A stretch of 64,000 nucleotides of DNA from Eledone cirrhosa (lineage: Eukaryota). The notes under the pieces were generated by a model, which did no database searches, had not been told where the DNA came from, and saw only the letters and a program-made list of their open reading frames with translations. The translations under genes and the position numbers were made by a program. Positions 4,583 through 57,862 of the stretch are shown piece by piece. Each line of letters begins with the position of its first letter. Within the stretch, counting starts at the first letter, position 1. The DNA is taken from the NCBI GenBank assembly GCA_964016885.1, contig OZ024743.1:60512001-60576000 (forward strand). Reading direction: 5' to 3'.

Positions 4583-4950
<368 letters not shown>

Positions 4951-5185
4951 ATATATATGTATGTATTTATGTATGTATACAGGTATGTATGTATGTATGT
5001 ATGTATGTAATATATGTATGTATGTATTCTTTACCTTCCTCCGTAGACGTTCCATTATACCATGACCATTCCCAGTGAAATATAATATTTATATTCTCTC
5101 TTATTCTTCCTCTCCTTTCCGTCAACACTTCAACAGCATTCATATGTATACATTTTTGGGGACTATCTATCTATCTATCTGTCTA

Positions 5186-7891: not shown

Positions 7892-7922
7892 TATCTATCT
7901 GTCTATCTATCTATCTATCTAT

Positions 7923-9258
7923 CACAAACTGTCCCTGAAAGGTCGGGCGGAGGTGGCGAACACTTATATAGCGTCCGTCATCTACTACCGCCTGACCGTT
8001 GTGCCTTGCCCAAGGGAAACGCTCGCCAAAATGGAGCGCGCACTCTTCCAATTCCTTTGGAAGAAGCGGGCTCCTATGCTGAGGAGATCCATCTGCTGTC
8101 AACACCCTTCGAAAGGAGGGCTGGGTGCCTAATGATACGTAAACACGCATTAAGACTACGGCACCTTCAGGTATTCCTCTCCAGTCAACCGGTGTGGGCC
8201 CCGTTTGTGAGGCGAGCCTTTCCCAGACTCGTCTCACTCACCGATCTGCAATCCTGGGTCAAGAAAAGACCGAGAAAACTGGGCGCCTGGCACACCGAGT
8301 GTGCCCAGGCGCTCACGGCTCTCTGGCAGGGGGTCCCGGCTGTCAGTGGAGAATCCACCTCGTCATTCTATAGAGGGCTGGTGGTTAGCAGGTACGACGA
8401 CGCCCTCGGAGAAGCCCTAGGCATGGAGGAAGACGAACTGGCCAACCTGTTCGGTAGGACATTCAGCCCGGGACCCATGGATAACTTCCAGAGGTCCCTG
8501 GCCTGGCAATGCTACAGAAGGGCTCTGCCCGTTCGAGAAAGGCTCTACAGACACGGGCGCCCGGGTAGGGACCCCTCGAAAAAGATCTGTCCCAGATGCG
8601 TGTGCGACGAGGAAACCGTTGCACACGCATTGGTACACTGCTCGGGCATTGCCGATCTGTGGGGCTATGTCGAACAACTGCTGTCAAGGGTGGGACCGAT
8701 CCGGTTGACCACCGAGTCTATTGTAACGATCAAGCCGCCTCCCCTCTTCAAAAACGAAGAAGAGGCGGTGTTTCTGTGCGTAATAGCCATGGCAAAAGAG
8801 GTTGTATGGTGGACGCGTCTGAAAGGACTGAGGTCAGACACCTTTCTCTCTGGCCAACAACTGGTCCGTTTCTTCCGATATCATTTCGGAAGAAGGATCA
8901 GGATGGAGAGAGAGGTGCTGCACCCCAGCCGTTTTTATGAAAGTGGCGAGAATGGCCCGTGTGAATGGGCCTTCACTCTACATCAGACTATAGGTGAGGA
9001 AGATGAAAGACCAAGGGAGCACCCCTTCTCTGTGCTCCTGAGGAAAAGGGTTGCACACTTTTTTCGGGGGTGTGTGCGACCCCCCAAGGCGCCTCCTCTC
9101 TATTGAGGACTTTGTCATAAATTTTATTTTTTGTTATATTTTATTTTATTTTTATATATTGTTATTGCCTCCTCCTTATTGAGGACGCCTTGTTTTGTAA
9201 ACTCCCCCCATTGTACTTGTCCCACTTTTGATGCCCTAGTGGCAAATAAAAGAAACAT
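7923..9258 (+). mobile_element. Second, shorter Tx1/L1-group LINE (related subfamily)
   Basis: ORFs 7845-8132 and 8006-9106 align with the 3' half of the upstream copy (GGLG, CPRCVCDEETVAHALVHC); (TATC)n flanks. Confidence 0.92.
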
Positions 9259-10577: not shown

Positions 10578-10712
10578 TCATCATTTTACGATCGTTTCTA
10601 GGATATATGTTTTTGTTGGTATGTTTATCATATAGATCTATGTAAAATTTTTACAAACTATCACAGGGAATATACATACCTACACATATATATGCTGTCT
10701 TCAGAAATAATA
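10578..10712 (-). ncRNA. Type I hammerhead ribozyme, long stem II
   Basis: ttattt-CTGAAGA-(~100 nt)-GAAA-cgatcg-TA-aaatga. Confidence 0.7.
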
Positions 10713-11944
10713 TTTGTTTATTGAAAAAAACTAACAAAGATTTAATATAATAGGTCTGTTTGGGAACAGGTTTTGAATTGACCAATAGAAAGGTAGTAAA
10801 TGATCAAGATGGTAAAATAGTAGTAATAGAACTTTAATTTAGGGGTAGAGGAAGGCAGATTTCAGTTTTGAATAGAAAGAGCATGATGAATGAAAAGATT
10901 ATTTTAGGGATGAAAATAGGTCAAGTCGGTAAAAGGTACACGAAAAATTGATGTTATAAAAGAATAATGCCAATAATATCTAAGGAGAATAAAATTTTAC
11001 GATAAATGTGTTAGTGAAAAATATCAATGTTATTTTAAATATAGGGAATTTACATCTATAAAAAGAAAATAAATTAATTAAATTGATAGGTATATTTATA
11101 TTGATAAATTTATATTAATTCATATAGATATGATAAATAAGAGTTAGATGTAATTGAAGAGTGCTGTTAAAAACGAAGGGAAAATAAAAAAATATTAATA
11201 ATAATTATTGGGGGGTGGGGGTTAAATTTATTAGTGAGAAATAACAAATTTATATAGATTATAAGGAACATAGAATCATAACCTGAAATTAAAATAGTTT
11301 ATATGTATACTTAATGGTATAAATTTTAGGAAAAGATAGCTGTAAAAGGGAAATAAAATTATGCAGTTCATTAGTAGTAGAATTATAGGTTAACTAATTA
11401 AAAAAAAGTGTTATTATAATAATTTCTAAAGTGTATATTAATTAGGTTTATAATATTTAAAAGTTCTTCTCAGTTTATGATTACATAATATAATTAATTC
11501 CTGTCGTTTATTTAATAGGATATCCTTAGATTTCATTATTTCAAAAAGTTCCTGGGAACATAATCTACATTCATATCTATTATTTTGATAAGGAGTGGCC
11601 CTTTTGAGCACACTCCAGGTCAGGTCATAATCTATATTCCTCTTTCTATAATTATTAATTATTTCAGCTAAAGATGTTGTATTAGCTAATGCGGCATTTT
11701 TAAAACTGTGTTTGTACCTTTTACCGATTTGAACTATTTTCATCCCTAATATTTTATCTTTTAATTCATCATACTCTTTCCATTCAAAACTGAAATCTGC
11801 CTTCCTCTACCCCTAAATTAAAGTTCTATTACTACTATTTTACCATCTTGACCATTTACTACCTTTCTATTGGTCAATTCAAAACCTGTTCCCAAACAGA
11901 CCTATTATATTAAATCTTTGTTGGTTTTTTTCAATAAACAAATA

Positions 11945-12082
11945 TCATTATTTCTGAAGACAACATATATATGTGTAGGTATGTATATTCCCTTTGATAG
12001 TTTGTAAAAATGTTACATAGATCTATATGACATACATACCAACACAAACATATATATCCTAGAAACGATCGTAAAATGATGA
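11945..12082 (+). ncRNA. Type I hammerhead ribozyme, long stem II
   Basis: tcattattt-CTGAAGA-(~100 nt)-GAAA-cgatcg-TA-aaatgatga; 9-bp stem I. Confidence 0.75.
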
Positions 12083-17021: not shown

Positions 17022-17189
17022 AAGATATTAATAAATGGAAACTATATTTATAAAACCATATTTATTCTATTATATATATTTCAAGGGTACCAAAACTTTG
17101 GTACGCCCTCATCAGATTACAAAGCTTGTTTTATAAATATTGACATATCCAGGAATGAGACCTTAACAGTTCAAGTTTTACCTGGATAG

Positions 17190-20224: not shown

Positions 20225-20661
20225 CAAGTAAATATGTTTTAAAACAATGAGCAGGTTTGAAATTAGAAAATAGAACAGCTTTCACCGTATTTTTTTAGTA
20301 AAGAAATTTTAGTCTGATAATGGGGTTTAGAACCCTCAGATAAATGGAAAAGGATGAGTATTGACGTACATGGGAGTCGAACCCACATATTTGGTTATCC
20401 AGACCGCTGTGCTATCATTTACACCAACACATCACCAATCTCCCACCATTTAAATTAGAAGCTACATTCTTAGCGAGTATAAATGACAAGTAAATATGTT
20501 TTCAAACAATGAGCAGGTTTGAAATTAGAAAATAGAACAGCTTTCACCGTATTTTTTTTAGTAAAGAAATTTTAGTCTGATAATGGGGTTTAGAACTCTC
20601 AGATAAATGGAAAAAGATGAGTATTGACTCCCATGTACGTTAATACTCATCTTTTTCCATT
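20221..20661 (-). mobile_element. 262-nt unit with partial tandem repeat and inverted arm, containing a tRNA-like cloverleaf
   Basis: atgacaagtaaatatg at 20221 and 20483; 20626-20661 is the reverse complement of ~20343-20378; (TA)n at left. Confidence 0.75.
20362..20433 (-). tRNA. tRNA-like sequence (pseudo-tRNA inside a repeat)
   Basis: gatgtgt tg gtgt aaatgata gcac a gcggt ctggata accaa atat gtggg ttcgact cccat gtacgtc a; anticodon stem weak. Confidence 0.6.
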
Positions 20662-21197: not shown

Positions 21198-23850
21198 TGA
21201 GAGAAAAGTGCTTAATAAAAGATTCAGTCGAAAGCAAACATCAGTCTATAGAGATCTGAAGGGAAAAATAATAAGTCTCACTGAGACCCCATCCCAGAAA
21301 GACATAGAATCCTTTTGGAGCAAAATGTGGGGTGAAAAGAAGAATTTCAACCAAGATGTAGTGTGGCTAATAGAAATCCGAAAGAACTATTGCTCCTACA
21401 CTACAACAAAAACATACGAAATAAGTGAGGGTACCCTTGAGACTGTGATAGGAAAACTCTAAGATGAGAAAACACCAGGAAGAGACATGATTGTCGGCTA
21501 CTGGTACAAAAAACTGATATTCTATCGGAGGTATCTTACTGACCTCTACCAACAAGTTCTTAAGGGAGATACACTTATACCAGAATGGTTGACATTAGCA
21601 CAAACATTACTGGTCCCCAAGAACAAAGACACCCACTTGGAAAAAAACTACCGACCCATTACATGCCAGAACCTGATGTATAAGATGTATACAACCTGCC
21701 TGAACCTCCAAGATCACTGTGAAAATAATAACATCACAGATGAACAAGCAGCTGGAAAGAAAGAAGTTTAGGGATGTGCTGAACAACTCCTAATCAACAA
21801 AACTGCGATGTCGGGGCTGCGACAACTTAGGAGGAATATGGCTACAGTATGGCTGGACTACAGGAAAGTTTTCGATTCTGTTCCCCTCTCTTGGATGATA
21901 GAGGCCCTCCAACTTGCTAAAGTCCCAGACATTATTGTCAGAGCCATAGAGAGGCTGTCTTCTTCTTGGGCTACTATCCTAAGGTTAAAGACAGAGAGGG
22001 AGGACTCTATTTTCACTGATAAAATAAAATATTGCAGGAGTATATTTCAGAGGGACAGGCTCTCTGTGATATTATTCATCTTGTCATTAAAGCCCTTGTC
22101 GTTACTGCTAAGAAATGTAAGGGATACATCATTGGCTCACAAGAGGACAGAAATACGAACTTAACCCATAATTTCTTTGTGGACGATCTGAAACTCTATG
22201 CCAAGAACATGGATGGGATGCAAAAAAATCTTGACCGGGTTGCAAGGTTCTCAAAGGATATAGGAATGGAGCTTGGCCAAGATAAATGCTCATAGAGGGG
22301 GAAAACAACAACCCAATCTAGCAACATTGTCATCAATGGCCTAACTGTTTCACCGATATCTGATGAGGACTGCTACATATACCTGGGGATAGATGAGAAC
22401 ATATCCTATAATGGTATCTGTAATAAAGAACGCGTAACCAGGGAATACTACACCTGATTAAGAAAGATCTGGTAATCGGAACTCTCTGCGCCAAACAAAA
22501 CGGTGGCTCACAATGTGTTTGCTGTGCCTGTCCTAACACCAACGTTTGAAATACTTAATTGGACGATAGACGAAATCCGAGCAGTTGATGTTGGAACTCG
22601 AAAAATACTAAACAACACCAGAAACTTCCACATCAAGGGTGACATAGACCGCCTTTACTTGAAACGTAAGCAGGGAGGCAGAGGCCTAACATCAGTCCAG
22701 ACAAAATTTGAATGTCGCATCATATCTCTCCAACAACATCTACGAACCTCGAAGCGTAGGAGCCCGTTTCTCGAGCAAGTCTATCTGTATGAAACAGATA
22801 AAATGATGAGAGTTGGGATGTCGCTCAGCAGTATCGCAGTGAATCCATGGATGAAATACTGCATGCTTATCAGCAAAAAATCATGCACGGATATGTTGCC
22901 AGGAAGCTCCAGAGTGAGAGTAATATAGATAAGGAAAGTAGTCTATCTTGGAACAACAACCGCTATATTGGCTCCCACTTTGAAGAATACGCTTTTGCAA
23001 TCTAAGAACAGGAGATTAACACGAAATACCTGATTCACAAAAGAGATAGGGATGCAGGCAAAACACCTATATGTGATAACAAGTGCAGACATGTCATCGC
23101 GGTACTATCTACCTATGAGGCATGGTGTAGTGGCCAAAACACTGTACAATGCATTTCGTAAAAAAGATAGCCCCGATAATAATTACATTAAAAGCTACAG
23201 CAATGTGGAAGACATCCATGTACATAATATGAAAGAGAACTGGTGGAATGTTCCAGTAAAAACCCCAATAAAATGCAGGCATAACAGACCAGATATTATG
23301 ATATGGGACAGGGAGAAGAAAGCATGCACAGTAGTGGAAATTAGCTGCCCAGCAGATGCCAATATAATATCAAAGATTAGTGAAAAGGAGAATATTTATG
23401 CAGAACTGATGAGAAATCTGCAGATACTCCACCCTGATTACACCTTCAGATTTATGCCTGTGATTATTGGGGCACTGGGGTATGTTAGTAACTGCCTGAA
23501 TATAAATCTTGAGAAGCTAGGCTTCACAGGAACAGAAAGAACACAACTACTTAGGAAATTACAAGTACAATCCATTAATGGAACATTAAAAATATGTAAA
23601 AGATTCCGAAAATGTTGCATCTAATAACTGCACATACACATGTACAGATGCAAAGCATACACATGCACACATACAACTCAAAACATCCACATCCACACAT
23701 AGAATAACATCCATATCTACACATGCATACATACATAGATTACCTAGTTGATGTTGTGTAAATTCCAATGAGAGAGTCTTGTGTCTATGTTAGAAACCGA
23801 CTCTCTCTCTCTATTGGCAAAACTTTGTGAAATTATAAAACCAGAAGAAC
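21198..23850 (+). mobile_element. R4/Dong-clade LINE (RT plus restriction-like endonuclease), decayed
   Basis: NYRPITC, WLDYRKVFDSV, FFVDDLKLY, GGRGL, RHNRPDIMIWD..VVEISCP, PVIIGALG; (ACAT)n flanks. Confidence 0.9.
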
Positions 23851-31181: not shown

Positions 31182-31206
31182 TATATGTATATGTATATAT
31201 ATATAC

Positions 31207-31591
31207 AATGATATTAAATAAATGGAAACTATATTTATAAAACCATATTTATTTTATTATATATATTTCAAGGGTAACAAAGATATCATTGGTACGCTTT
31301 CATGAAATAAAATACAAAGTTTGTTTTATAAATAGAGACATACCCATGAAAATCATACCTTATCGGTTGGAAATTCATTATCCAGTGAATTTCCAACCGA
31401 TAAGGTATGTATCCAAACTTTGTATTTTATCTGATGAAAGCGTACCAATGTTATCTTCGTTACCCTTGAAATATATATAATAAAATAAATATGGTTTTAT
31501 AAATATAGTTTCCATTTATTTAATATCATTGAATATTTACTCCACTAAACTGTTGAGTACTCTAAATCAGTTATAAACATTTATGTTTGTC

Positions 31592-31593
<2 letters not shown>
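31207..31593. mobile_element. Fold-back PLE terminus (family A)
   Basis: Arms ~31206-31376 / 31385-31531 around ttggaaattca ttatccag tgaatttccaa; + arm has an extra tail. Confidence 0.85.
31423..31487 (+). ncRNA. Type I hammerhead ribozyme
   Basis: tattttat-CTGATGA-aagcgtacc..gttaccctt-GAAA-tatata-TA-ataaaata. Confidence 0.82.
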
Positions 31594-31658
<65 letters not shown>

Positions 31659-31711
31659 CATACATGTATATATATATACATACATACACATATATATACA
31701 TTCATACATAC

Positions 31712-31802
<91 letters not shown>

Positions 31803-31805
31803 TAT

Positions 31806-32602
31806 ATGCAGACGTACACTAGTATGTATACATATACATACATGCACACATATATACATGTACGTATGGGTTTACCGAACATTTATTATAATGCTCGGTT
31901 TGTTTGTAAACAAACAGCCCGAATTATTAGCCGTACAGTGTTCGGCAACCATCGTTGCCCTTTTGTCAACACTTACAAAGGAACGATGAAATAGTTTCTA
32001 GCTTATTAGCTGTCATCAGCATCGTATACCTTCCTGTCAGTCGATTGAACGTTTGAAGGTATATACTTTCCTTGTGCATATTAACAGCTGAGCAGCCTAA
32101 TTTGCATATCGAGTGAGTTAGTCGGCCGGGTGTACCGAAAACAATAAATGGAAAAATGAAATTTTAGTTCTCACTCTTAGTACGGCTGATACTTAAATAT
32201 AAGTATGTATACGTACATACATATATGTATACAGACGTACACTAGTATGTATATATATGCATACATGCACACATATATACATGTACGTATGGGTTTACCG
32301 AACATTTATTATAATGCTCGGTTTGTTTGTAAACAAACAGCTCGAATTATTAGCCGTACAGTGTTCGGCAACCATCGTTGCCCTTTTGTGAATAATTCGG
32401 GCTGTTTGTTTACAAACAAACCGAGCATTATCATAAATGTTCGATAAACCCATACGTACATGTATATATGTGTGCATGTATGTATATATATATATACATA
32501 CTAGTGTACGTCTGTATACATATATGTATGTACGTATACATACTTATATTTAAGTATCAGCCGTACTAAGAGTGAGAAATGAAATTTCATTTTTTCCATT
32601 TA
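31806..32602 (-). mobile_element. Non-coding retrozyme-like element (family C): 423-nt unit, partial tandem repeat, inverted arm
   Basis: cagacgtacactag at 31809 and 32232; 32390-32600 is the reverse complement of ~32145-32351. Confidence 0.85.
31983..32025 (-). ncRNA. Minimal type I hammerhead (stem III mutated)
   Basis: acgatg-CTGATGA-cagct aata agcta-GAAA-ctat-TT-catcgt. Confidence 0.72.
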
Positions 32603-32616
32603 CATATATATATGTA

Positions 32617-32652
<36 letters not shown>

Positions 32653-32753
32653 TACATATATGTATATATACATGTATATATGTATATATGTATACATACA
32701 TGTATATATATATATACATGTATGCATTTTTTCCATTTACATATATATATGTA

Positions 32754-32791
<38 letters not shown>

Positions 32792-32833
32792 CATATATGT
32801 ATATATACATGTATACATGTATATATGTATACA

Positions 32834-32915
<82 letters not shown>

Positions 32916-32958
32916 GATATATTAACAAATGGAAACTATATTTATAAAACCATATTTA

Positions 32959-33019
32959 TTTCATTATACATATTTCAAGGATACCAAGTTAAATTATTGT
33001 GTGCTTTCATCAGATAAAA
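32959..33019 (-). ncRNA. Type I hammerhead ribozyme
   Basis: ttttat-CTGATGA-aagcacac..gtatcctt-GAAA-tatgta-TA-atgaaa; the mirror copy near 36575 has a mutated core. Confidence 0.72.
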
Positions 33020-33904
33020 CATAATATAGATAAGTTTTATAAATAAATATTGATATACACTTAAAGAATGCGACCATTTCTGTTGGAAGCTCCCGGAAAG
33101 TGGGGTTATTAAATTTATTTATTCTATTATGCAAATTAGTGTCGGATATGTTTAAATCACAGTAGATTTTAAATAAGCCGTTGGGGTATGGAGAAAGGGA
33201 AAGAAAAGAAAGAGAAAAAAATAGAAAAAAAATAGAAAAAAGAGCAAACTCTAAGAGGAAAATAAGAAAACAAGAAAAAGAGAAAGAGAAAGAGAAGAAA
33301 AAAAGAAAAGAGAAAAGGGAAAGAGAAAGAGAAAGCTCTGAGTGATAGGTTGTTGTATTAGTGTAACTTTTAAGATGAAGTGAAAAAATAAATATTTATT
33401 GGATGAGTAAAGAAGAGTAAATAAGCGTGAATAGAAAATAAATAAATAATAATAACTAGAGAACTTTAACCAGTGTTTAAATATGATTAAATGTATAGTT
33501 TATCAATTAAATTATCAATTAAATTATTGAGATCTATACATTAAAATTGAGATCTATATATTATTAAAAAATCTATATATTATTAAAACTATATATTATT
33601 AAAAAACCTATATATAAAAATATATATATACATATAAATATATATATATATATATATACCTACACATACATACATATACATACAATAAAAGATTTTTTAT
33701 GTTTAAAATATAGGAACTTTTCTAAACTTATAGATTTTTCAGAAAAAACGGAGAAAAAAACGGAGAAAAAACCGGAGAAAATCATGTCTATGTAATAGCA
33801 AAGCAGCGTGAAGGAAATTAAGTTATTTACTTATATTAAATGTTATAAATGTTAAGATAATAATGTAAATGTAAGATTATACAAACGTTATATTATTATT
33901 ACAA

Positions 33905-33997
33905 ACTTTGCCTTTCATCCTTACGGGGTCGATAAAATAAAGTACCAGTAATGTACTGGGTAATTTCTGGCCTTGTGCCAATAGTAGAAACAGTTAT
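33905..33997 (+). mobile_element. Truncated SINE family 1 inside the PLE UTR
   Basis: Core identical to 15017-15090; another partial copy at 59558-59650. Confidence 0.85.
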
Positions 33998-34192
33998 ATT
34001 ATTATACAAACTTTATATCATTCAATAGATTTTATAAATTTTATATCTAATAAATCCACCTGTTATGTAGTTGTGACTGTTATTATATAAGTTTGTTTAA
34101 CATAAACCGTAAGAAATCCCTTATAACCGAGTGCATTCGAATTGTATGCATATATACATATACACAACCCCCCCATACCGGTAGACATGCAT

Positions 34193-34475
<283 letters not shown>

Positions 34476-36763
34476 AAAGTACGTAGTATAATTAAAGTAC
34501 ATAATATATAAAATAAAATAAAAAAAAAATGAATTATTGTTTTAAAAGGGATTACGATTTGGAAATATATTCTTACAATTATAAGCAATATAACTTTAAA
34601 GCAATATAATTTTTAAAATATTAAAAAATATAATTTTAAAATAAGAATATGTCTAAAAAATTTAGTATAAAAATTTAAATTTTTTTTTATATAATATTTA
34701 ACTCTCAGTATGTTTAACTTAATTTTTATAACCATATGGGAAATTTTCAAAGAAAAAGAAAGAGAAACATTCAAAAGAGAAACTTTCAAAGAAAATATGT
34801 TCCCCTTTTAAGAGCCCTCAATATGTTTATCTAGAAACATTTTCTAGGAAATTTTTTTTTTTTATATTTGAGAGTTTTAAGCAGGCAAATGAAGGAATCT
34901 AATGATTTATCGATAGGTTCAATATATTTAATAGAATTAATTATATATTACATTTTAAATTTTAAATTTCTATTTAAACGTTGAATTCAATGTATGTCTG
35001 CAGCAACTGAAAAGATTGCTCCTTATGTTCAGGGAATTTTTGCTTTTTAATATAAAGAATATTTCCTCTATACAAAGATCACAATTTTCTGAAGAGGAGT
35101 TAAAAGGAGTAGCTTTTGAAATAATATTCCAAAGTAATGAATATTTAACGTTCTTTAATTTAAGGTCCCATAATACGCTAGATAGAGAAGTTGAAGATGT
35201 TTTGTTTAAATGCGTAAAAGAGCTTTTATGGTTATTAAAACGAGATTTAAAAATCTGTGGAAGTAGATCCTACATAATTAAATGAATTTAAATTAGGTTT
35301 TACATTACAATTATATACTATATTTTTAGCTAAGCAATTGTTATTTAACGGACAGTTAGATTTATTTCTACAGTTACATTTATCAAATTGGATATTGCTG
35401 GGGTTATTAGTGGTATTTTGGTTAGGTTTTAAATTTCTATTATTAATTCTATTAATATTCTGCGCTAAATTTTTGGTGGATGAATAAGTTAATTTTATAG
35501 TATGTCTATTAAATATTGAGTAAAATCTATGTGTTCTAAGGAAGCATTTGTCAAGAGCTTTAAAGAATAGTTTAGCAATAGGAGTTTTAATATTTAATGA
35601 GAAAGGAGGAGCGAACCATAATATATTCCTAGTTCTATTTCTTATTTTGTTTTCCGAATTATTGTAAGGTTTTCTATTATAGTTGTTAAAATTGTTAAGA
35701 TTATGGTTAGTTGTTATATTATTATTATCAATGTATTTAATTTTATTTTTATATCCAGCCCTACCTAACGCTTCGTTGTAATAATGTGCTTTATCATCCG
35801 TTTTTTTCTCTGTTTTCTCTGAAAAATCTATAAGTTTAGAAAAATTCCTATATCTTAAACATTAAAAGTCCTTTATTGTATGCATGTATATGTATGTATG
35901 TGTAGGTGTATATATATATATATTTATATGTATATATATGAATATATTCTTTTAAGAATTTATAGATTTTTTAATAATATATAGTTTTAATAATATATAA
36001 ATTTTTAGTTAATATATAGATCTCAATTTTAATGTATAGATCTCAATAATTTAATTGATAATTTTAATTTGATAAACTAAACATTTAATCATATTTATAC
36101 ACTGGTTAAAATTCTCTAGTTATTATTATTTATTTATTTTCTATTCACGCTTATTTACTCTTCTTTACTCATCCAATAAATATTTATTTTTTCACTTCAT
36201 CTTAAAAGTTACGCTAATACAACAACCTATCACTCAGAGCTGTCTCTTTCTCTTTTTCTTTCCCTTTTCTCTTTTTTTATTTCTTCTCTTTCTCTTTCAC
36301 TTTTTCTTGTTTTCTTATTTTCCTCTTAGAGTTTGCTCTTTTTTCTCTTTTTTTTTCTCTTTTTTTTCGCTTTTTTTTCTCTTTCTTTTCTTTCCATTTC
36401 TCCATACTCCAACGGCTTATTTAAAATCTACTATGATTTAAACATATCCGACACTAATTTGCATAATAGAATAAATAAATTTAATAACCCCACTATCCGG
36501 GAGCTTCCAACAGAAATGGTCGCATTCTTTAAGGGTATGTCAATATTTATTTATAAAACTGATCTATATTATATTTTATCGAATGAAAGCACACCATAAT
36601 TTAACTTGGTGTCCTTAAAATATGTATAATGAAATAAATATGGTTTTATAAATATAGTTTCCATTTGTTAATATATCGTATTTTTACTCCAATAATTTGT
36701 TGAGTGCTTTATATCAGTTATAAACATATTTGCTTGTTGTATCCCAACAATTTAAATAGAATT

Positions 36764-41835: not shown

Positions 41836-42020
41836 ATACGCGCGCGCGCGTGTGCGTGCGTATGTGTGGGTGTGTATGTATTTGTGTGTACGTATGTATG
41901 TACTGGCCTAAATCTTCACTATTTACTTTTACTATTTGAATAACCTCTGTCATTTTCGTTTTCAATTTTATTTACATCATTCTTAAACTCCGGGGCTGGA
42001 AATCATTCTGTTGTTTTAAA

Positions 42021-42492
42021 TAGAATATTAGTCTAACGACTCCATTTATACCATAAACTGGGTCTTGTCTTTGCATGAAATTGTTCCTCACGCTCCACAT
42101 ATCGACGTATTATCCTAGCCTTTTTTCCGTTCATTGCCAGGGAACGTCTTAACAAACCAAAACATCGTCTTCCTGTTTTCGTTCGGTTGCAACGTTTCTC
42201 GAAATATGTACTTCTGAGTTCATAGATTACTTTCAGTTCAATTTGAATGGGAAATTCCTGTTTCATCGATTTTCTCAGTAACCATGGAAGCTTGTAGCTT
42301 GAAAGTCGACCCAACGCCTCCTCGGTTCATTGTGCATAATTGTAAATTTTCGCCGCATTCCACCAAGTTGTTTCGACGTGTTTATCCGACTACACATACT
42401 TACTTAAATATACAAATTCTGACCACTTCCAATTTATATAGTAGATATATGTATATATATATATACATATAAATATGTATATATATATATAC

Positions 42493-42584
<92 letters not shown>

Positions 42585-43062
42585 GTATATATATATATAC
42601 ATATTTATATGTATATATATATATATATATACATATATCTACTATATAAATTGGAAGTGGTCAGAATTTGTATATTTAAGTAAGTATGTGTAGTCGGATA
42701 AACACGTCGAAACAACTTGGTGGAAGGCGGCGAAAATTTACAATTATGCATAATGAACCGAGGAGGCGTTGGGTCGACTTTCAAGCTACAAGCTTCCATG
42801 GTTACTGAGAAAATCGATGAAACAGGAATTTCCCATTCAAATTGAACTGAAAGTAATCTATGAACTCAGAAGTACATATTTCGAGAAACGTTGCAACCGA
42901 ACGAAAACAGGAAGACGATGTTTTGGTTTGTTAAGACGTTCCCTGGCAATGAACGGAAAAAAGGCTAGGATAATACGTCGATATGTGGAGCGTGAGGAAC
43001 AATTTCATGCAAAGACAAGACCCAGTTTATGGTATAAATGGAGTCGTTAGACTAATATTCTA
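42021..43062. repeat. Near-perfect ~1-kb inverted duplication centred on (TA)n
   Basis: Arms 42021-~42500 / ~42575-43062; identical 93-aa ORFs on opposite strands; related sequence at 49840-50163. Confidence 0.95.
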
Positions 43063-43079
43063 TATATATATATATATAT

Positions 43080-43275
43080 AACAAAGGAATTGTGGTAAGG
43101 AACCAGATGGACCATAACGCACGAGAGTACACAATACTTAGGGTAGTAGAGTGGGAAATAGGAAAAAGTATGACCTCGACGGCAGTGCTCAAGCCGTTTC
43201 GATGGATTTTTCTGGACAGAAATAGCCGTCGAAATGGCTTGAGCTCTGCCGTCGGGGTCATACTTTTTCCTATCT
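43080..43275. mobile_element. Fold-back PLE-type terminus (family B)
   Basis: Arms ~43158-43213 / 43216-43273; GAAA-tggcttgagctctgccg-TC-ggggtc. Confidence 0.78.
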
Positions 43276-43365: not shown

Positions 43366-43931
43366 TTCGTTTCTGAACTTGCTGAATTTGTTTAGCAAGA
43401 TTCTTTATCTGAAATCGTGTGTTGAAACCGATATTGTTATACTTTGGGAGGGTCATGTTGCCAATAAGAAACACACGCACCAGTTGCTTTCACTTCAATT
43501 TATTATAATAAATTTATAATAAATTGATAAATTTATAAATTTCTGGTTGGTTGGTTGGTTCCACAACCAGATAGTTGTTTATATATTGTCATAGTTCTCT
43601 CGTCACACACTCTGTGACCTCTTCAGACACCCGGATGTGGCGCATGCGCAGACTGAACACACAACACACACACAGAAACAAAATGGCGTAGGACAGAACA
43701 AAGGAGAGGCACAGAAACAAAGAAAGGAATCCCCAGTCACTGAAGAGGTCACAGAGTGTGTGACGAAAGAACTATGACAATATATAAACAACTATCTGGT
43801 TGTGGAACCAACCAACCAACCAGAAATTTATAAATTTATGAATTTATTATAAATTTATTATAATAAATTGAAGTGAAAGCAACTGGTGCGTGTGTTTCTT
43901 ATTGGCAACATGACCCTCCCAAAGTATAACA

Positions 43932-43935
<4 letters not shown>
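43362..43935. mobile_element. Fold-back PLE-type terminus (family E)
   Basis: Arms 43431-43626 / 43740-43934; tail shared with 46570-46650 and 61477-61625. Confidence 0.85.
43736..43778 (+). ncRNA. Minimal type I hammerhead ribozyme
   Basis: gtca-CTGAAGA-ggtcaca gagtg tgtgac-GAAA-gaac-TA-tgac; the mirror copy has GAGA. Confidence 0.72.
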
Positions 43936-44171: not shown

Positions 44172-45977
44172 ATAACTTTGATAACTTTGATAACTTTGAT
44201 AGGTTTCGGCCAGTATTGGCCCAGGCCATGTTTAACTTAATAGCACCACCTAGCAAAGTCTTACAAATCAGTGTTTGGGCACCATGGCCCACTCGAGCAG
44301 AGAGTTATTGTTTACGGAGGCATATCCGGGTGTAGGAGGCTTATCCGGGATTTCTTGAAGGAATTTATCCGAAGACTTCTTGAAATTGATGGGGTCTGTC
44401 TCTGCTTTGATGTGTTTTGGTGTAATATTAAAGAGTGCAGGACCAATTGAGGTGAAATAATTGTGCCGAATTGTTATGTGATGCGAGTGTGATTTTTGTC
44501 GTGGGCGGATAGCACGGGGCCCAAGCCTTGGGTGTACACTAAGCATCATTTGGGCTAAGCTGATGGAATATTTTCCACATCATACAGATAATTTAGCGCT
44601 CACGGCGACGTTGAAGAGAATAAAGTTTGCGCTTTTCTAATCGACCCCAATAGTCAAGGCCTGTCATGCCAACTATCTTTTTTGTAATTGACCTTTGGGG
44701 TGCTTCAACTTTCATGATACTTTGTTTCGTGTGGGGTGACCACAGTGGACAACAGTATTCAAGGTGGGGTCGGGCAAATGTGGAGAAGAGAAGGACAACA
44801 GTGTGGATATCTCGACTGGAAAGGTCTGAGAATCCAGGAACACATTCTGCGGGCCATATAAACTTTGCTGTTTATATGGGTGGCCCAGCTTATATTATTG
44901 TCCACAATTACTCCCAGGTCTCTGATGTTATTGGCGGCCACTAGAGTTTCAGCCGAAGGAAGAGAGTATGGTAGTGGATTAGTTCAAATTTATCCTCATT
45001 CAACAGCATATTATTCATCTCTGCCCATTGGATAACAGCCAGTAGGTCTGACTGAAGGCAAGTCCGGTCACCCACCTCATTGATGACCCTTTGGAGCTTG
45101 GAATCATCTGCGAAGATTCTGATGTTGCTGTGTTTGATGATGTCAGTAATGTCATTAATGTAGATGATGAAAAGAAGTGGACCGAACACAGTGCCTTGTG
45201 GGCGCCACTGCTGACTTTGGCAGGGCTTGATTTTACTCATTCGACTACAACATGCTGGGTTCTGCCTGTCAGGAAACATTTGATCCACTGTAGTAACCTT
45301 CCAGAGATACCAACATTGGATAGTTTTTTCAGTAGAATCTTATAATCAACCATGTCGAAGGCCTTGATGAAATCAAGGTAGATTACATCAGTGTTGGAGC
45401 CCTCTCTCAAAGCGCTCAAAACATCGTCAAAGTGATGCAGGAGCTGCATTAGGTAGTCCCTTCCATTACGGAACCCATGTTGGTTGGAGTTCAGCAGGCC
45501 GTTGCTTTCAAGAAAGTGGGTTATTCGTGATCTCACTACCCTCTCAAATACTTTGATAATATGAGAGGTGAGTAAGATGGGAGGGTAGTTCATTGCAAGG
45601 GACTTATTTCCCTTTTTGAAGACTGGGACAACGGACTGGGATAGAAAGTTTTCAGGAATATAGCCAGTATCCAGTGAGTTCCTCCACAGATTAGCAAGAG
45701 GAGTTGCAAGTTGGTGTCGACACACCTTCAGGACAAAAGTAGGGAACCTGTCAGGGCCTACTGCTGAATTGTGTTTAATTTCGTTTATTGCCGCTAAGAC
45801 ATCAGGGGCACCACACGTTAAGTCTGATATAGTGTGTTGGGGGTTAACATCACTGATACGGCCCAGATCGGCCATATCAGAATTGCTGAAAACAGAACAG
45901 TATTGTTTCTGCAGTATCTCGCCCATGGTTTTGGCATTGTCCTGGAGTGTGCCATTTTCATCAACTAGGGGGCCAAC
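44172..45977 (-). mobile_element. CR1-group LINE, 5'-truncated, frameshifted RT
   Basis: GPDRFP, NQHGFR, IYLDFIKAFDMVD, PQGTVFGPLLF, FADDSKL, IRDLGVI; 3' tail (tatcaaagt)x3. Confidence 0.9.
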
Positions 45978-46033
45978 ATATATATAAATATATATACATA
46001 TATATATATATAAATACATATATATACAAAATA

Positions 46034-46115
<82 letters not shown>

Positions 46116-46118
<3 letters not shown>

Positions 46119-46558
46119 GATATTAAGAAATGGAAACTATATTTATAAAACCATATTTATTTCATTATACATAATTCAAGGACACCAAGTTAAATTATGG
46201 TGTGCTTTCATCAGATAAAATATAATATAGAGCAGTTTTTAAATAAATATTGACGTACCCTTAGAATGCAACCATTACTGTTGGAAGCTCCGGGATAGCT
46301 TCCAACAGTAATGGTTGCATTCTAAGGGTATGTCAATATTTATTTATAAAACTGCTCTATATTATATTTTATTCGATGAAAGCGCACCATAATTTAACTT
46401 GGTGTCCTTGAATTATGTATAATGAAATAAATATGGTTTTATAAATATAGTTTCCATTTGTTAATATCGTATTTTTACTCCAAATATTTGTTGAGTGCTT
46501 TATATCAGTTATAAAAATATTTGCTTATTGTATCCCAACAATTTAAATATAAATTTTA
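46116..46558. mobile_element. Fold-back PLE terminus (family A) with decayed HHRs
   Basis: Arms meet at ttggaagct ccgggat agcttccaa (~46293); minus 46160-46220 has CTGATGA..GAAT. Confidence 0.85.
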
Positions 46559-46569
46559 CATATATATAT

Positions 46570-47600
46570 ATATATATAGTTTTGCGAGGTATTTTGATAT
46601 GAAATCGTGTGTCGAAACAAATATTGTTATACTTGGGGAGGGTCATATTTGTGTAATAATATTGACAGAATTAATAACAGAACACACTCAGTGTTTGGTT
46701 GGTTTTCGCTGCTGTGTCTTTTATATCGGTTAATTTAATTTATTCGGTGCTCAATGTTACCATTGACTGACCAACTGTCAAAAATACAGTTATAATATAG
46801 AAACAAACACATATATATATAGTCTAACAAAGTTCTTTCTTTGCACATCTGCAACATCGCCAGTGGTGCTATTATGTTTCCTCCCGTTGTATTTTATGCC
46901 TATTTTATGCCATCTTTATTTAGTCTGTTTATTTATTTGTTTGTTTGTTTTGTTTTTTTTTTTGTCTTCTCTGCGCATGGGTTTGCGTGTGTGTATAGTG
47001 TTTTGTTTGATGCGTGTTCGTGTTTGGGTGACTGTGTATTGGTTATTGTATTCTATCTTAGTTTACTAGTGTGTGTTTATATGTGTTTGTTGTTATTGTG
47101 CTTGTGTATGTATTTATTTATTTATTTATACTTCTCTTAGGTCAGTGTTGTTTGTTTGGGTGTTGTTGTTATTCCATTCATTTTTTCTGTTTAGCCTTGG
47201 CCTTCTAAGTTCTATTTCGCTGGCCTCTCTGATTTGCCTATCTGCTGGGTCATTTCTATGTTTAGATATTATTCTAATTTCTATGTTGTCTATGTTACCG
47301 TCGTGTTGTTGTCTGGCATGTTCGTATAGTACTGAACCGTTTCTTCGTCCTTTTAGTTTCCCCCAGTGTTGTCTATCCTTTCACCTATGCTACGAGCTGT
47401 CTCGCCTATGTATGTTGTTGTCATATTTCTGCAAGTACACTCTGTACATCTCATGCTATAGACTACGTTTCTAGTTATATAGTTTATCCGGGGGTTTACT
47501 TTACATATAATACATTTCCTATTAGTACAGTGGGTTTTCTTAAAAGGGTAGGTTTTGCTAATCAGGGATTTTATGGTGGTTCCTGACTTTTCTACCACCG
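46570..47600 (-). mobile_element. PLE remnant (GIY-YIG, UTR, decayed HHR at 46826-46867)
   Basis: CTNRKCIIC..NVVYSMRCTEC..YIGETARSIGERI; CTGGCGA-tgttgca gatg tgcaaa-GAAA-gaac-TT. Confidence 0.75.
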
Positions 47601-47810
47601 TGATATTATGGGGTGACCTCAGCTGGGAGCAGCAGTCCAGGCGGCTGAGGACAAATGTCCTCCATAGTGTCAATATGGTCTCTCGGTCTATTGTCCGGAA
47701 AATCTTCAAGATCTGGTCCGCTAGTCGCCTGCATATTGTCGCCACACTCATAATGTGTGAAGAAAAAGATGTGTCATCGCTCATGTCTACCCCCATGTCT
47801 CGTATCGATT
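47600..47810 (-). mobile_element. CR1-group LINE fragment
   Basis: IRDMGVDMSDDTSFSSHI..LWRTFVLSRLDCCSQLRSPH. Confidence 0.8.
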
Positions 47811-47855
47811 TCGACATGGGAATTTCGAGATCCCTCCTGCTTGGGTGTAGTATTG

Positions 47856-47912
<57 letters not shown>

Positions 47913-48064
47913 AGAACTGCAGTTCTGTTTACAAGCCAACACAAGAGCAAGTATGATGGGCTCATTCTACTGACATGGCTTAAAAGAGGGTGTTTGTATA
48001 ATTGCAAACGAATCGGATATTATTATTATTATTCGAAAAGCTCAGATTAGATTCATTGTATTCA

Positions 48065-50164: not shown

Positions 50165-52215
50165 CTAGGAGACCGAATGAATCTCCGCTACAGAGTTAAG
50201 AACAAAGTAAATAAATACAATACAGAAGTAATAGGAACAAATAAATACATACACGCAAACAGATACGTACATACACAAGCATACGCAAAACCTTACCATA
50301 GGTATACAAAACCACGCACATATAAATATGTGTATGTGTGTATGCTTGTGTACAAATAAATAAATAATTATATAAACGTATATAAGTAAATAAATACGTA
50401 TATAACAAGCGCACACACATACCTACAAATCAATACATGAAGGTTCGGAGACGTAAGTCAACTAAAACAAGAAGTACACATATACACACACCCACCATAC
50501 GTACGAACCTGCATACTCCCGCAGACGCAAAACTCCCATATACACATAACCAAGCCCTAAATACCAGAATATGTAAAAATTATACGCCAAAACAGTCAAA
50601 TATACGTACGAGAAGGTATACATACCTTCACAAAACATACGGGTAATATATACTTACCTATGCAAAAAGTAAAGTAATAAACAAAACATATACTTAGCTC
50701 CCACATCAAGACGTAAATATCCACGTATAGATCGTGCTATCCGTTAGGGTATAACGTAGGGCTGTAATACAGGAAAGTTTTGTGCAATTTATGTTTACAA
50801 GCCGAAATTGCCTCAGATTTTTTGTTTAAGATGTGGTCTGTGGCGTAGAGTATTTCCAGGGCCTCAGCGGCGCAGAGGTCACATGGTCTTTTATTTCCGT
50901 TATACGATCTAGCCCTAGCTAGGATCTCCCATTGTAACTTATATTGGGTGTGGTTGTCTTTTAGGCTCCAGATATAAGCTGAAAGTGACGTCATATTCCT
51001 TCTTAGAGGGTAACGAAAAGAATGGGTATGCATGTAAAGACGCTGCTTGAAACTATTGGCGGTTAACCCTATGTAGGCCCTACGGGACGTGGGTGTTACA
51101 ACCTTACATTTGTAGACAATGTTACTAGAGAGGCATTTCCCGGATAGGGGACAATCAGCCCGATTCCTACAATTACAGTTAGTACTAACTACAGGGTTGC
51201 ACGTGTTCCTACGGCTAGGTATTTTAGCTAAATTTGAAGCTGTGATGTTATGTGCAAGGTTAGGAGTCGTTGAGTAAGAAATTTTAATAGTGTTTCTATT
51301 AAAAATTTTACTATATTTATGTGTAGGGGGAAAATGCTTCGTAATAAGTGAAAGAAAGATCTTAGCTAATGGTGTGGCCACCTCCATATTATATGGTGGG
51401 TTAAACCAACAAATGCGACGGGATCTATTTCTTCTAGGTCTATTCTCGTACTCTGTATATGCTACCTTATCCACCCACTTCGAGCAAGAGCTTCATTGTA
51501 ATAAGTGGAATGGTCGTTGAAAATGCGCTCGTTGGTGGAAAGACGGGAAAGCCTCAACGAAACGTGTTTTACCATGTTATTGGTTATACTGGCAGGATGG
51601 TTGGAATGCTTACTTATGTAATTAAGCGTATCATTCGGCTTTCTATACGGGTAATGCAACCCATTCAATAAATTGAGGGTAACGTCGAGGTAATTAACGA
51701 CCGAGAGATTGGCCTCAACCTGTATAGAGAGGTTGAAGCCTTTAAAGAAGGCTGTGAGTTATTTTCTGAATCTGTCGCAAGCACGAGGTCCGCACTTAGT
51801 CATGGTCAAAAGGCCATCGTCACGGTACAAACCACCGCCCGCGTTAGGGAATTCGTCCTTGATAGAGAAAAGAAGGAAAAGGCCAATAAGATCAGTAACT
51901 TCCGCAGAGTCACTGGCGCCCATACTCACGTCGAATGGGGTACTATTGGATTTTTTAATCCAAATAGAATCGTCGAAATTAATCACCGACTTTCGGGCAT
52001 TAAGGATGACATCAACTTCGAAATCCTTAACCACTGTGAGTGTTTTAGCGAAATTGATAGCTCTAAGGAGAAGTGGTAAAGTGATGGAGGAGTAGTAATT
52101 GTTGATGTCGAATTGGATAAAACGGCAATGTTCCTTGTTACATATGCCGTTGAACCAATCAATCACCGCGAAAGAATTGTTCCACAGTGCGAGAGGGGCC
52201 AAATTTCTAATTTCA
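50165..52215 (-). mobile_element. PLE with RT, linker and C-terminal GIY-YIG (5'-truncated, frameshifted)
   Basis: [73 protein letters not shown]. Confidence 0.93.
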
Positions 52216-55900: not shown

Positions 55901-57147
55901 ATACATAAATATATCATACAGGTTTTCATATGGAGCTCTATGAAGAACCACGCTATGTTAGTGCCACCTCAAATTATTTTTAATTAAATAATTGAATTTA
56001 ATTGATGTTCGGTGTGGGGCGTGAGGAATATGTGTTGCGGTGGTGGAAGGTGCAACGAGAGAGGCTGATTACTACTACTACAAGTACTACTATTACTAAT
56101 ACTACTACTATAACCACGATAACAACAACCACATCAACAATAATAGCCCGCTGGTACTAGGAGTTATTTTCCGCGTGCAGCAATTCTTATTCAGGCTTTC
56201 GGTATAATGTTCAGTGTGTGGGTGTGCTCGTGTGTGTGGGAGAGTTTGAGTGTGTGTGCTTGTCTAGAAAGGTCTCAATTTGAGAACAAATATTTAGTTT
56301 CATGCTTGGACCTCATAATAATCTCCGATTTCCGGTTAATTTCAATTAAATTGATTATTTTTATATATTCGTCTATACACAGGCCGAAATTTCGGTGTTC
56401 TGTTGGATAGGGAAATGCAGGCCTGACTATAGATCATTTCGTTCTAAAATAAACTTCCTTATCTCTGTGTTACAAAATCCCCAAAACTAGTTTGAGATTA
56501 TGCGTTTTTATTCTTAAATCAACTGACTTGTTTGTAGTATCTACACTTAGACATCGTGACGGTTGCTTCTATGAATACGTAATGCCTGGTATTGGTGGTC
56601 ACGGTCCATTTATAAACGATGTACAACGTTAGGCAGTTGCTCTGCAGAGGACATACAGGTGGAGAACTGCAGCTGCACGTTCTGCTCATTGGGTGAACAG
56701 GGAGTTTGGTTATTTTTCTACTGTTATCTCTGGCATTTGTCCCTTGGGTGGGGCTCTTTGCGTTCGTCTGTTAAATCGGGTGTGGGTCATGTTGGTTACA
56801 CAAAGAGTGTTTTGGATTTGTTATATTCTTGAGTTACATATTATTAATGAATGATGTGGTAGTAAATGAGATTTTAATGGTATGTCTATTAAATAGCTTG
56901 TGGTATTAATCCGACAGAGGGAGGCATTTGTCCAGAGCCATGAAAATAATTACACATTTGTTTGTTTGGTCGTGCCTAATGTATGGCACATTAAACACAC
57001 TTTATATTACGTCGATAACAAACAGACATCTGTGTTAATACACACATTTAAAAATGAATATCTAATTAACGTAATAGCATAGAATGTTCCAAGAGGGTCC
57101 ACCCACAGTAGCATTTTATTACTAACCAACGTGCTATACATACAAAC

Positions 57148-57195
<48 letters not shown>

Positions 57196-57209
57196 ATATA
57201 TATATATAT

Positions 57210-57345
57210 ATAGGAAAATGTTAGACCCTGACCGTAGAGCTCAAGCCATTTCGACGGGTATTTCTGGACCAGAAATAGCCGTCAAAACGGCTTGAGCTCT
57301 GCCGTCGGGGTCTAACATTTTCCTATTACCCATTACCACATCTCC
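57210..57345. mobile_element. Fold-back PLE-type terminus (family B)
   Basis: Arms 57210-57266 / 57270-57326 centred on tatttctg gac cagaaata. Confidence 0.8.
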
Positions 57346-57354
57346 TTCGTTATA

Positions 57355-57792
57355 TAAGTGTAAGTATGTATGTATACGCACATATATATATATGTATACA
57401 GACGTACAGTACTATGTATATATATATACATACATGCACACATATATATATGTACGTATGGGTTTACCGAACATTTATTACAATGTTCAGTTTGTTTGTA
57501 AACAAACAGCCCGAATTACGCCGCACAGTGTTCAGGCAACCATCGTCGCCTTTTTGTTAAACACTGACACAGGAACGATGTACTAGTTTCAAGCTTATTA
57601 GCTATCGTCAGCATCGTATACCTTCCTGTCAGATGACTAAACGTCTGAAAGTATATACTTTCCCTATGCATATTAATGGCTGAGCATATATGTAAACATA
57701 TATGTATGTGCGTATACATACATACTTACACTTAAGTATCAGCCGTACTAAGAGTGAGAAATGAAATTTCGTTTCATTCTTTTCCATCTTCG

Positions 57793-57795
<3 letters not shown>
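57355..57795 (-). mobile_element. Second family C element with inverted arm
   Basis: Homologous to 31806-32095; 57690-57790 matches 32515-32600. Confidence 0.85.
57575..57617 (-). ncRNA. Minimal type I hammerhead ribozyme
   Basis: acgatg-CTGACGA-tagct aata agctt-GAAA-ctag-TA-catcgt. Confidence 0.85.

Positions 57796-57862
<67 letters not shown>

What the first reader, a model, noticed from the sequence alone, without database searches (positions are those of the whole stretch)
31806..32602. 423-nt HHR monomer (family C) with partial tandem repeat and inverted arm; sibling at 57355-57795
Seen: period 423 nt; HHR at 31983-32025 (minus). The second unit stops at 32389, ~20 nt from the equivalent cleavage position, and flips into a ~210-nt inverted arm. 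The sibling 25 kb away has a better HHR (CTGACGA, ctag stem III, GUA) and also an inverted arm ending in the same tail. Inference: a dispersed non-coding ribozyme retroelement family.
Basis: partly seen in the sequence, partly recalled or inferred. Interest (0 to 1): 0.75.

Follow-up and report, generated by a model that had tools for sequence, protein, structure and literature searches.

The report
Ribozyme-bearing Penelope-type short retroelement copies
These are two copies of a short, non-coding mobile element carrying a self-cutting RNA motif, pasted into TA repeats in the way Penelope-like retrotransposons insert: a known kind of element, most likely a new family of it.

Summary
Copy A (31806-32602) has a 423-nt period (156/160 matches), one degenerate minimal type I hammerhead and a 212-nt inverted arm. 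Copy B (57357-57787, 90% identical) has an intact dimer-type hammerhead and an arm ending within 4 nt of A's. New here: B is flanked by a unique 12-bp target-site duplication at the edge of a (TA)n tract. Partial tandem, inverted 5'-truncated copy, long and short 3' ends and (TA)n targeting are the published signature of Penelope-like element (PLE) insertion. The window also holds coding PLE remnants and other hammerhead families built the same way. No coding homology, autonomous partner or Pol III box was found. Caveats: each copy has one ribozyme, so neither can release a circle. The 423-nt join is seen once and falls at the shared terminus, so it could be a 5'-truncated end of a longer PLE plus a template jump; folding tests did not settle this. 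Verdict: most likely (about 0.6) a non-autonomous PLE / non-LTR retrozyme-like family; 0.3 debris of a longer PLE. New member of a known kind.

The parts
31806..32389 (-). Copy A main segment, 1.38 units (unit positions u23 to 423 to 183; u1 = first base after the hammerhead cleavage site at 31989|31988)
31806..32228 (-). One unit length (423 nt, 36.9% GC, no ORF with PLE homology)
31983..32025 (-). Degenerate minimal type I hammerhead (stem I 6 bp, stem II 4 bp, stem III reduced to 1 pair, UUU triplet)
   Evidence: relaxed descriptor only
32144..32145 (-). Head-to-tail join u267|u268 (between 32145 and 32144), seen only here; it coincides with the arm terminus and is the point on which the 423-nt unit rests
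32229..32389 (-). Partial second unit (u23-183), stopping 22 nt short of the cleavage position
32391..32602 (+). Copy A inverted arm (u61-267 read on plus); its outer end is the long 3' end
   Evidence: (201 of 207)
31593..31805 (.). (TA)n tract, left target flank of A; any TSD is hidden in it
32603..32914 (.). TA-rich right flank of A, with a local 137-nt duplication that repeats the last 15 nt of the arm at 32725
   Evidence: 52 of 52 at offset 137
57345..57356 (+). Left copy of the 12-bp target-site duplication of copy B
57357..57686 (-). Copy B main segment (u318 to 423 to about 218), less than one unit
   Evidence: 287 of 320
57575..57617 (-). Intact-looking minimal type I hammerhead: CUGACGA, U-U at the base of stem II, palindromic stem III, GUA; stem I extends 6 more pairs past a 6-nt bulge
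57687..57695 (+). 9-nt TA-rich filler at the inner junction of B
57696..57787 (+). Copy B inverted arm (about u184-263); its outer end is the long 3' end
57788..57799 (+). Right copy of the 12-bp TSD, running into a (TA)n tract

Best explanation
Two insertions of a short non-coding, non-autonomous Penelope-type retroelement (non-LTR retrozyme-like) whose full length is the 423-nt unit. A source locus elsewhere is transcribed as a multimer, or processed by dimeric hammerheads and re-ligated into a circle (inferred; linear versus circle not resolved, circle about 0.35). A PLE protein supplied in trans nicks both strands at or beside a (TA)n tract about 12 nt apart (the spacing is shown by B's TSD; the enzyme is inferred). 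Each 3'-OH primes reverse transcription inside the RNA. One starts at a nearly fixed site (u263-267) with no homology to the target; the other starts upstream in or beside the element's TA-rich tract (u183, about u218). The two 5'-truncated cDNAs are joined back to back, giving the inverted arm. In A one cDNA ran past one unit, giving the partial tandem. Both copies carry one ribozyme and are probably dead-end offspring. PLE-type insertion alone I put at about 0.9; the score below is for the whole statement, including the 423-nt full length.
For: The anatomy matches the published PLE signature: partial tandem, adjacent inverted 5'-truncated copy, optional 30-40 bp tail, (TA)n bias (PMC8557442 passages). 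A PLE protein nicks and extends both strands and starts at two internal, non-homologous RNA sites (PMC11167929). The 12-bp TSD occurs only at these two places in the window; the null rate is 23 of 5000 random placements. The three A copies of u61-183 differ only by private changes, 2 substitutions each, as expected from one event. A second hammerhead family in the window shows the same long-end/short-end inverted build three times. Four coding PLE remnants are present, two with the CxCX5C linker of the (TA)n-targeting Hydra clade. No coding signal: best tblastn E 0.2 with 26 PLE proteins; 0 hits for the frame open across the ribozyme among 1.84 billion representatives. GC is 36.9% and the unit is strongly structured (z -6.4; z -4.5 with the TA tract held fixed). 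A curation guide states that the tandem second copy follows full-length insertions (PMC8969392 passage).
Against: The u267|268 join is seen once; B does not cover it. The segment only A has (u268-317) adds nothing to the fold beyond its shuffles (51 of 60 shuffles as stable, z +0.9). No copy has two ribozymes. A's ribozyme is probably inactive. The fold is nearly as strong on the antisense strand (z -5.3). Structure-preserving substitution between A and B is not significant (P 0.07 and 0.11 sense; 0.28 and 0.44 antisense), with 0 of 64 pairs doubly compensated. No coding PLE in the window shares the terminus. The long-short end distance is about 45 nt (B) and 84 nt (A), against 30-40 in print. 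423 nt is slightly above the 170-400 nt range of PMC7229834, though inside the 51-972 bp range of the 2026 preprint.
Confidence: 0.6

Rival explanations
1. Both copies are only the 5'-truncated 3' ends (pLTR: ribozyme plus tail) of a longer PLE, coding or not. The 423-nt period in A is accidental: reverse transcription stopped 156 nt upstream of the ribozyme and jumped to the initiation site of another RNA.
For: The join lies exactly at the shared 3' terminus. u268-317 shows no structural coupling to the rest. Short truncated inverted copies are common for another hammerhead family in this window, one of whose copies reaches into PLE ORF sequence. A coding PLE remnant here has about 900 nt of non-coding 3' sequence ending in a hammerhead-like motif and (TA)n, so 423 nt without an ORF does not exclude a coding parent.
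Against: It needs a template jump landing exactly on the initiation site with no (TA)n or filler at the join. The literature read describes the tandem partner as following full-length copies. No PLE coding homology is found at either edge of the unit, though PLE N-termini and UTRs would not be expected to match.
Confidence: 0.3
2. One simple insertion was later rearranged in place (slippage or fold-back replication in the TA tracts), making the tandem and the arm after insertion.
For: A local 137-nt duplication does exist just right of A, and the flanks are unstable TA tracts.
Against: The upstream copy runs unbroken from u23 to u267, which neither the arm (u61-267) nor the downstream copy (u1-183) contains alone. 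The three copies are equidistant. Two separate loci end their arms within 4 nt of each other. B's TSD encloses the arm.
Confidence: 0.06
3. A fold-back or MITE-type DNA transposon, or a Pol III SINE, that happens to carry a hammerhead.
For: Inverted repeats, short length, no ORF.
Against: The two termini are not inverted copies of each other (long and short ends), and the inner junctions differ between copies. No exact B box among the 21 window matches falls in either copy; with one mismatch, one B-like site and one A-B pair at 70 nt spacing in the A unit. A T5 and a T4 run lie in the sense strand.
Confidence: 0.04

Closest known systems
Metazoan non-LTR retrozymes (PMC7229834; bioRxiv 10.64898/2026.07.22.740005)
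   Same: Short, low-GC, non-coding unit with a type I hammerhead, head-to-tail repetition, TSD longer than 4 bp, highly paired predicted circle, co-occurrence with PLEs. A U-U mismatch at the base of stem II is also described for an axolotl retrozyme ribozyme.
   Different: No copy here has two ribozyme-bearing units, so by the preprint's definition these are monomer-type offspring, not active retrozymes. The unit length is seen once. The inverted arm is not a feature in the passages I read on retrozymes. Expression and circularity are untested.
EN+ Penelope-like elements, especially (TA)n-targeting Hydra and Naiad clades (PMC8557442) and Poseidon PAc (PMC11167929)
   Same: Partial tandem (pLTR), adjacent inverted 5'-truncated copy, two alternative 3' ends, minimal hammerhead with palindromic stem III upstream of the 3' end, insertion at (TA)n, clustering next to other PLE copies.
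   Different: No RT or GIY-YIG sequence in what is seen. The 3' end lies 263-267 nt past the cleavage site, further than in PAc (about 85-92 nt, worked out) or in the neighbouring family. No autonomous partner identified.
Non-autonomous Chlamys PLEs such as MRC1 (PMC8557442 passage)
   Same: Non-coding elements that form pLTRs and head-to-tail insertions through PLE machinery.
   Different: Those are algal, and most Chlamys lack canonical hammerheads. They share 3' ends with known autonomous families, which was not shown here.
Schistosome hammerhead SINE-like repeats (PMC6765202 passage)
   Same: Short repeat unit with a hammerhead.
   Different: Those carry a promoter before the ribozyme; no convincing Pol III box was found here.

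Membership tests
non-LTR retrozyme | Type I hammerhead in the unit | tested here: met
   B passes the strict descriptor, A only the relaxed one; Rfam models detect neither
non-LTR retrozyme | Head-to-tail repeats of a fixed short monomer | tested here: inconclusive
   1.38 units at period 423 in A only; B is under one unit
non-LTR retrozyme (active, 2026 preprint definition) | At least two consecutive units each with a complete hammerhead | tested here: not met
   One hammerhead per copy; a source locus elsewhere cannot be searched
non-LTR retrozyme | No protein coding | tested here: met
   tested against 26 Hydra-type proteins and one profile search only
non-LTR retrozyme | GC below about 45-50% | tested here: met
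   36.9%
non-LTR retrozyme | TSD longer than 4 bp when present | tested here: met
   12 bp at B; not discernible at A
non-LTR retrozyme | Highly self-paired predicted circle | tested here: met
   65% paired, z -6.4, z -4.5 with the TA tract fixed; not strand-specific
non-LTR retrozyme | No PBS or PPT | not tested
   No specific search made
non-LTR retrozyme | Expressed, self-cleaved, accumulates as circular RNA | not testable with these tools
   No RNA data or assay
autonomous EN+ PLE | Single ORF with RT and GIY-YIG domains | tested here: not met
   applies to the sequence present, not to a possible longer parent
PLE-mobilised element | Partial tandem forming a pLTR | tested here: met
   Copy A
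PLE-mobilised element | Adjacent inverted 5'-truncated copy | tested here: met
   2 of 2 copies
PLE-mobilised element | 30-40 bp tail at one end (two initiation sites) | tested here: inconclusive
   Long end nearly fixed (u263, u267); short end variable, about 45 and 84 nt upstream
PLE-mobilised element | Insertion at (TA)n microsatellites (Hydra, Naiad) | tested here: met
   2 of 2 copies abut (TA)n; the window is rich in such tracts and no enrichment test was run
PLE-mobilised element | 3' end shared with an autonomous PLE | tested here: inconclusive
   No match in the window beyond weak AT-rich hits at E 0.005 and 0.038; the rest of the genome was not available
Pol III SINE | A and B boxes | tested here: not met
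MITE / TIR DNA transposon | Matching terminal inverted repeats at both ends | tested here: not met
   Ends differ by about 45 and 84 nt of unit sequence

The most novel reading that the evidence does not exclude
A true 423-nt retrozyme circle is reverse-transcribed rolling-circle fashion by a (TA)n-targeting PLE protein that primes from both target strands, with the element's own TA-rich tract acting as a landing pad for the microsatellite primer. The TSD, tail and inversion would then be direct integration-site evidence that animal retrozymes use PLE machinery. The papers read argue that link from co-occurrence and sequence relatedness only. A lineage with a decayed ribozyme (copy A) would show that cleavage can be dispensable.
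Probability: 0.25. Interest if true: 0.55.

Novelty: new member of a known kind. Interest (0 to 1): 0.3.

Why it matters
How animal retrozymes integrate is still described as unresolved; the 2026 preprint says the mechanism remains to be worked out. If the 423-nt unit is confirmed genome-wide, these copies give a clean junction signature (12-bp TSD, fixed non-homologous start, inverted second cDNA) that matches PLE biochemistry, and an RNA to test in the existing in vitro PLE assay. If not, they are ordinary PLE 3'-end debris in a genome full of it. Two copies in 64 kb extrapolate loosely to 4-113 per Mb, so the genome-wide test should be quick.

Tried and rejected
Rfam: no hammerhead hit at gathering or by E-value. 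The many miRNA-family rows there are below their gathering scores and track TA-rich palindromes; I rejected them. A reading frame open across the ribozyme in both copies (65 and 56 aa, 76% identical) was tested as a PLE ORF edge: 0 hits, no PLE match; treated as chance. Covariation between A and B: not significant. Structural coupling across the u267|268 join: a 7-bp helix is predicted at probability about 0.74, but shuffling u268-317 does as well; uninformative. A shared short pyrimidine-rich motif near the ends of several families was noticed, but most of its occurrences in the window are not at element ends; not claimed. A 25-nt exact scan of prokaryotic genome contigs for stray copies gave 0. 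The stem II motif is absent from the one supplementary file held for PMC8557442. The sigma-70 scan is irrelevant to a eukaryote; ARAGORN found 0 genes. Pfam named none of the 3 PLE fragments or the one other EN-like fragment submitted. An independent second insertion as the cause of the tandem was rejected because no (TA)n or TSD remnant lies at the join. The host taxon was not determined. Metagenome and viral contig collections stayed unchecked, and no eukaryotic genome or RNA-seq collection was available. The supplements of PMC7229834 and of the 2026 preprint could not be seen and may list related units or junctions; PMC5785218 was not held.

Full report
Setting. The window is AT-rich and dense in microsatellites (164 tandem-repeat rows), with broken LINE-type RT fragments and PLE remnants. 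It looks like animal DNA; I did not determine the taxon. I use unit coordinates u: sense is the ribozyme strand, and u1 is the first base after the predicted cleavage site at 31989|31988.

Observation. Offset 423 gives 156 of 160 matches, against 25-66 for the 16 other offsets tried. Copy A is a main segment on the minus strand, u23 to 423 to 183 (32389 to 31806), then one unassigned base, then an arm 32391-32602 that reads u61-267 on the plus strand (201 of 207). Copy B is a main segment u318 to 423 to about 218 (287 of 320), a 9-nt filler and an arm of about u184-263 (69 of 75 over the aligned part). A sensitive search with four parts of the unit found no third copy in the window.

Ribozymes. 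B has a 6-bp stem I, the CUGANGA core, a 4-bp stem II closed by U-U, GAAA, a palindromic stem III and a GUA triplet. A has the same frame, but stem III is reduced to one pair and the triplet is UUU. My descriptor found 4 loci (relaxed) and 3 (strict) against means of 0.04 and 0.01 in 100 shuffled windows; A passes only the relaxed form, which was written with the candidates in view. Rfam detected neither (the list for A reached 150 rows and may be cut). Minimal PLE hammerheads with palindromic stem III are described as cleaving slowly and as dimers (PMC6765202, passages). Each copy holds one ribozyme, so neither can excise a monomer.

New evidence on integration. A 12-bp direct repeat flanks B at 57345 and 57788, occurs nowhere else in the window and is not part of the unit. 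A comparable repeat arose in 23 of 5000 random placements. It ends in TA repeats and the right copy runs into a (TA)n tract, so B inserted at a microsatellite edge. A lies inside a TA tract where no TSD can be read. Read on its own sense strand, each segment points its 3' end outward. The arm ends are nearly fixed (u267, u263) and share no homology with the target in B. The other ends vary (u183, about u218) and lie in or beside the unit's TA-rich tract with a few bases of microhomology. The three A copies of u61-183 each carry 2 private substitutions and share none. That fits one insertion event followed by about 1.6% decay per copy, while A and B differ by about 10% and so come from different source lineages (inference).

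Comparison with print. PMC8557442 (passages, section 11 and a supplement search) describes PLE insertions as 5'-truncated partial tandems, often with an adjacent inverted truncated copy, a 30-40 bp tail at one end and (TA)n bias in Naiad and Hydra. PMC11167929 (parts 1-2 of 4) shows a PLE protein nicking and extending both strands, initiating at two internal RNA sites not homologous to the target, and not needing ribozyme cleavage. These account for the whole anatomy. PMC7229834 (passages and Discussion; supplement unreadable) defines non-LTR retrozymes as 170-400 nt tandem units with type I hammerheads and proposes PLEs as mobilisers. The 2026 preprint (parts 1-3 of 5; supplements not seen) argues the same from co-occurrence and pLTR phylogeny and counts solo monomers as offspring. 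Six literature searches and the supplement search returned no description of this sequence family; they cover only the held library.

Context in the window. tblastn with 26 relatives of one fragment found four PLE remnants: 11441-11764, 34949-35906, 50788-52208 and 56278-56995. Two show a CxCX5C linker, the Hydra-clade mark; I ran no phylogeny. The remnant at 50788 is followed by about 900 nt of non-coding sequence, a hammerhead-like motif and (TA)n. Another hammerhead family has three inverted insertions with a common short end and a longer tailed end, and A sits in the TA tract between two of them. None shares sequence with the unit beyond weak AT-rich hits, so the partner is unnamed.

Is 423 nt the real unit? 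For: no coding homology, size and GC in the retrozyme range, a seamless join, and the statement that the tandem partner follows full-length copies (PMC8969392, passage). The circular fold is -128.2 kcal/mol against -88.8 +/- 6.1 in 100 shuffles, and 0 of 60 shuffles reached it with the TA tract fixed. Against: the join is seen once and falls exactly at the arm terminus, which a truncation plus template jump would also produce. The structure comes from u61-110 and u216-267 (0 of 60 shuffles each), while u268-317 adds nothing (51 of 60) and u318-367 little (10 of 60). The antisense fold is almost as strong (z -5.3). Substitutions between A and B spare pairings only weakly (P 0.07, 0.11), with no double compensation among 64 pairs. 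A's cDNA stops 22 nt before the second cleavage site, which does not mark a cleaved 5' end. The matter cannot be settled from this window.

Mechanism, shown and inferred. Shown in sequence: two related copies, partial tandem, inverted arms with a common end, a TSD, TA-tract location, one hammerhead each. Inferred from published PLE behaviour: two-strand nicking and priming by a PLE protein in trans, and joining of two truncated cDNAs. Inferred with less support: a tandem source locus, a circular intermediate (about 0.35), priming on the internal TA tract, and decay of A's ribozyme before insertion.

Verdict. Real, and well explained by known biology. PLE-type retrotransposition about 0.9; full-length 423-nt non-autonomous unit about 0.6; end of a longer PLE about 0.3. 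It works like a PLE-mobilised retrozyme; membership as an active retrozyme is not met by these copies. New member of a known kind, interest 0.3.

Noticed in passing
window 31206-31592, 32912-36750, 46115-46560, 17025-17115: Another minimal-hammerhead family. Three copies are inverted insertions with a common short end and a longer tailed end. The longest encloses a PLE ORF remnant (34949-35906) that lies antisense to the right-hand ribozyme.
   Followed up: partly
window 12618(+), 12925(-), 40473(+), 43740(+), 52743(+), 55397(+), 60456(+), about 49810(-): Further hammerhead-like motifs of several families, read by eye, most followed within about 200 nt by (TA)n. With the others this is roughly one per 5 kb; these did not pass my descriptor.
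   Followed up: partly
window 11441-11764, 34949-35906, 50788-52208, 56278-56995 (all minus): Broken PLE coding remnants; two have the CxCX5C linker described for the Hydra clade.
   Followed up: partly
window 47353-47928 (-): Fragment with a cysteine-rich linker and a GIY-YIG-like motif that looks like a different PLE clade (Neptune or Naiad type, recalled, untested); no Pfam hit.
   Followed up: no
window 57193-57341, 43091-43273, 4770-4946, 2228-2341: A family with a roughly 115-nt near-perfect palindrome ending at (TA)n; one copy directly abuts B's left TSD. No hammerhead seen; possibly another fold-back PLE end or a MITE.
   Followed up: partly
window 42017-43066, 10578-12082, 43431-43935: Long inverted repeats (99% over 418 bp around a TA tract; 94% over 370 bp enclosing a PLE fragment; 99% over 196 bp).
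   Followed up: no
window 20362-20433 (-): The only Rfam gathering-level hit: a tRNA-like sequence (34.8 bits) between duplicated segments; not called by ARAGORN; possibly a SINE head.
   Followed up: no
window 5079-9158, 21772-23624, 44941-46136: Broken LINE-type elements with RT matches; the first has an internal 1.2-kb duplicate at 78% identity.
   Followed up: no
window 32588-32836: 137-nt local tandem duplication that starts with the last 15 nt of A's arm.
   Followed up: partly
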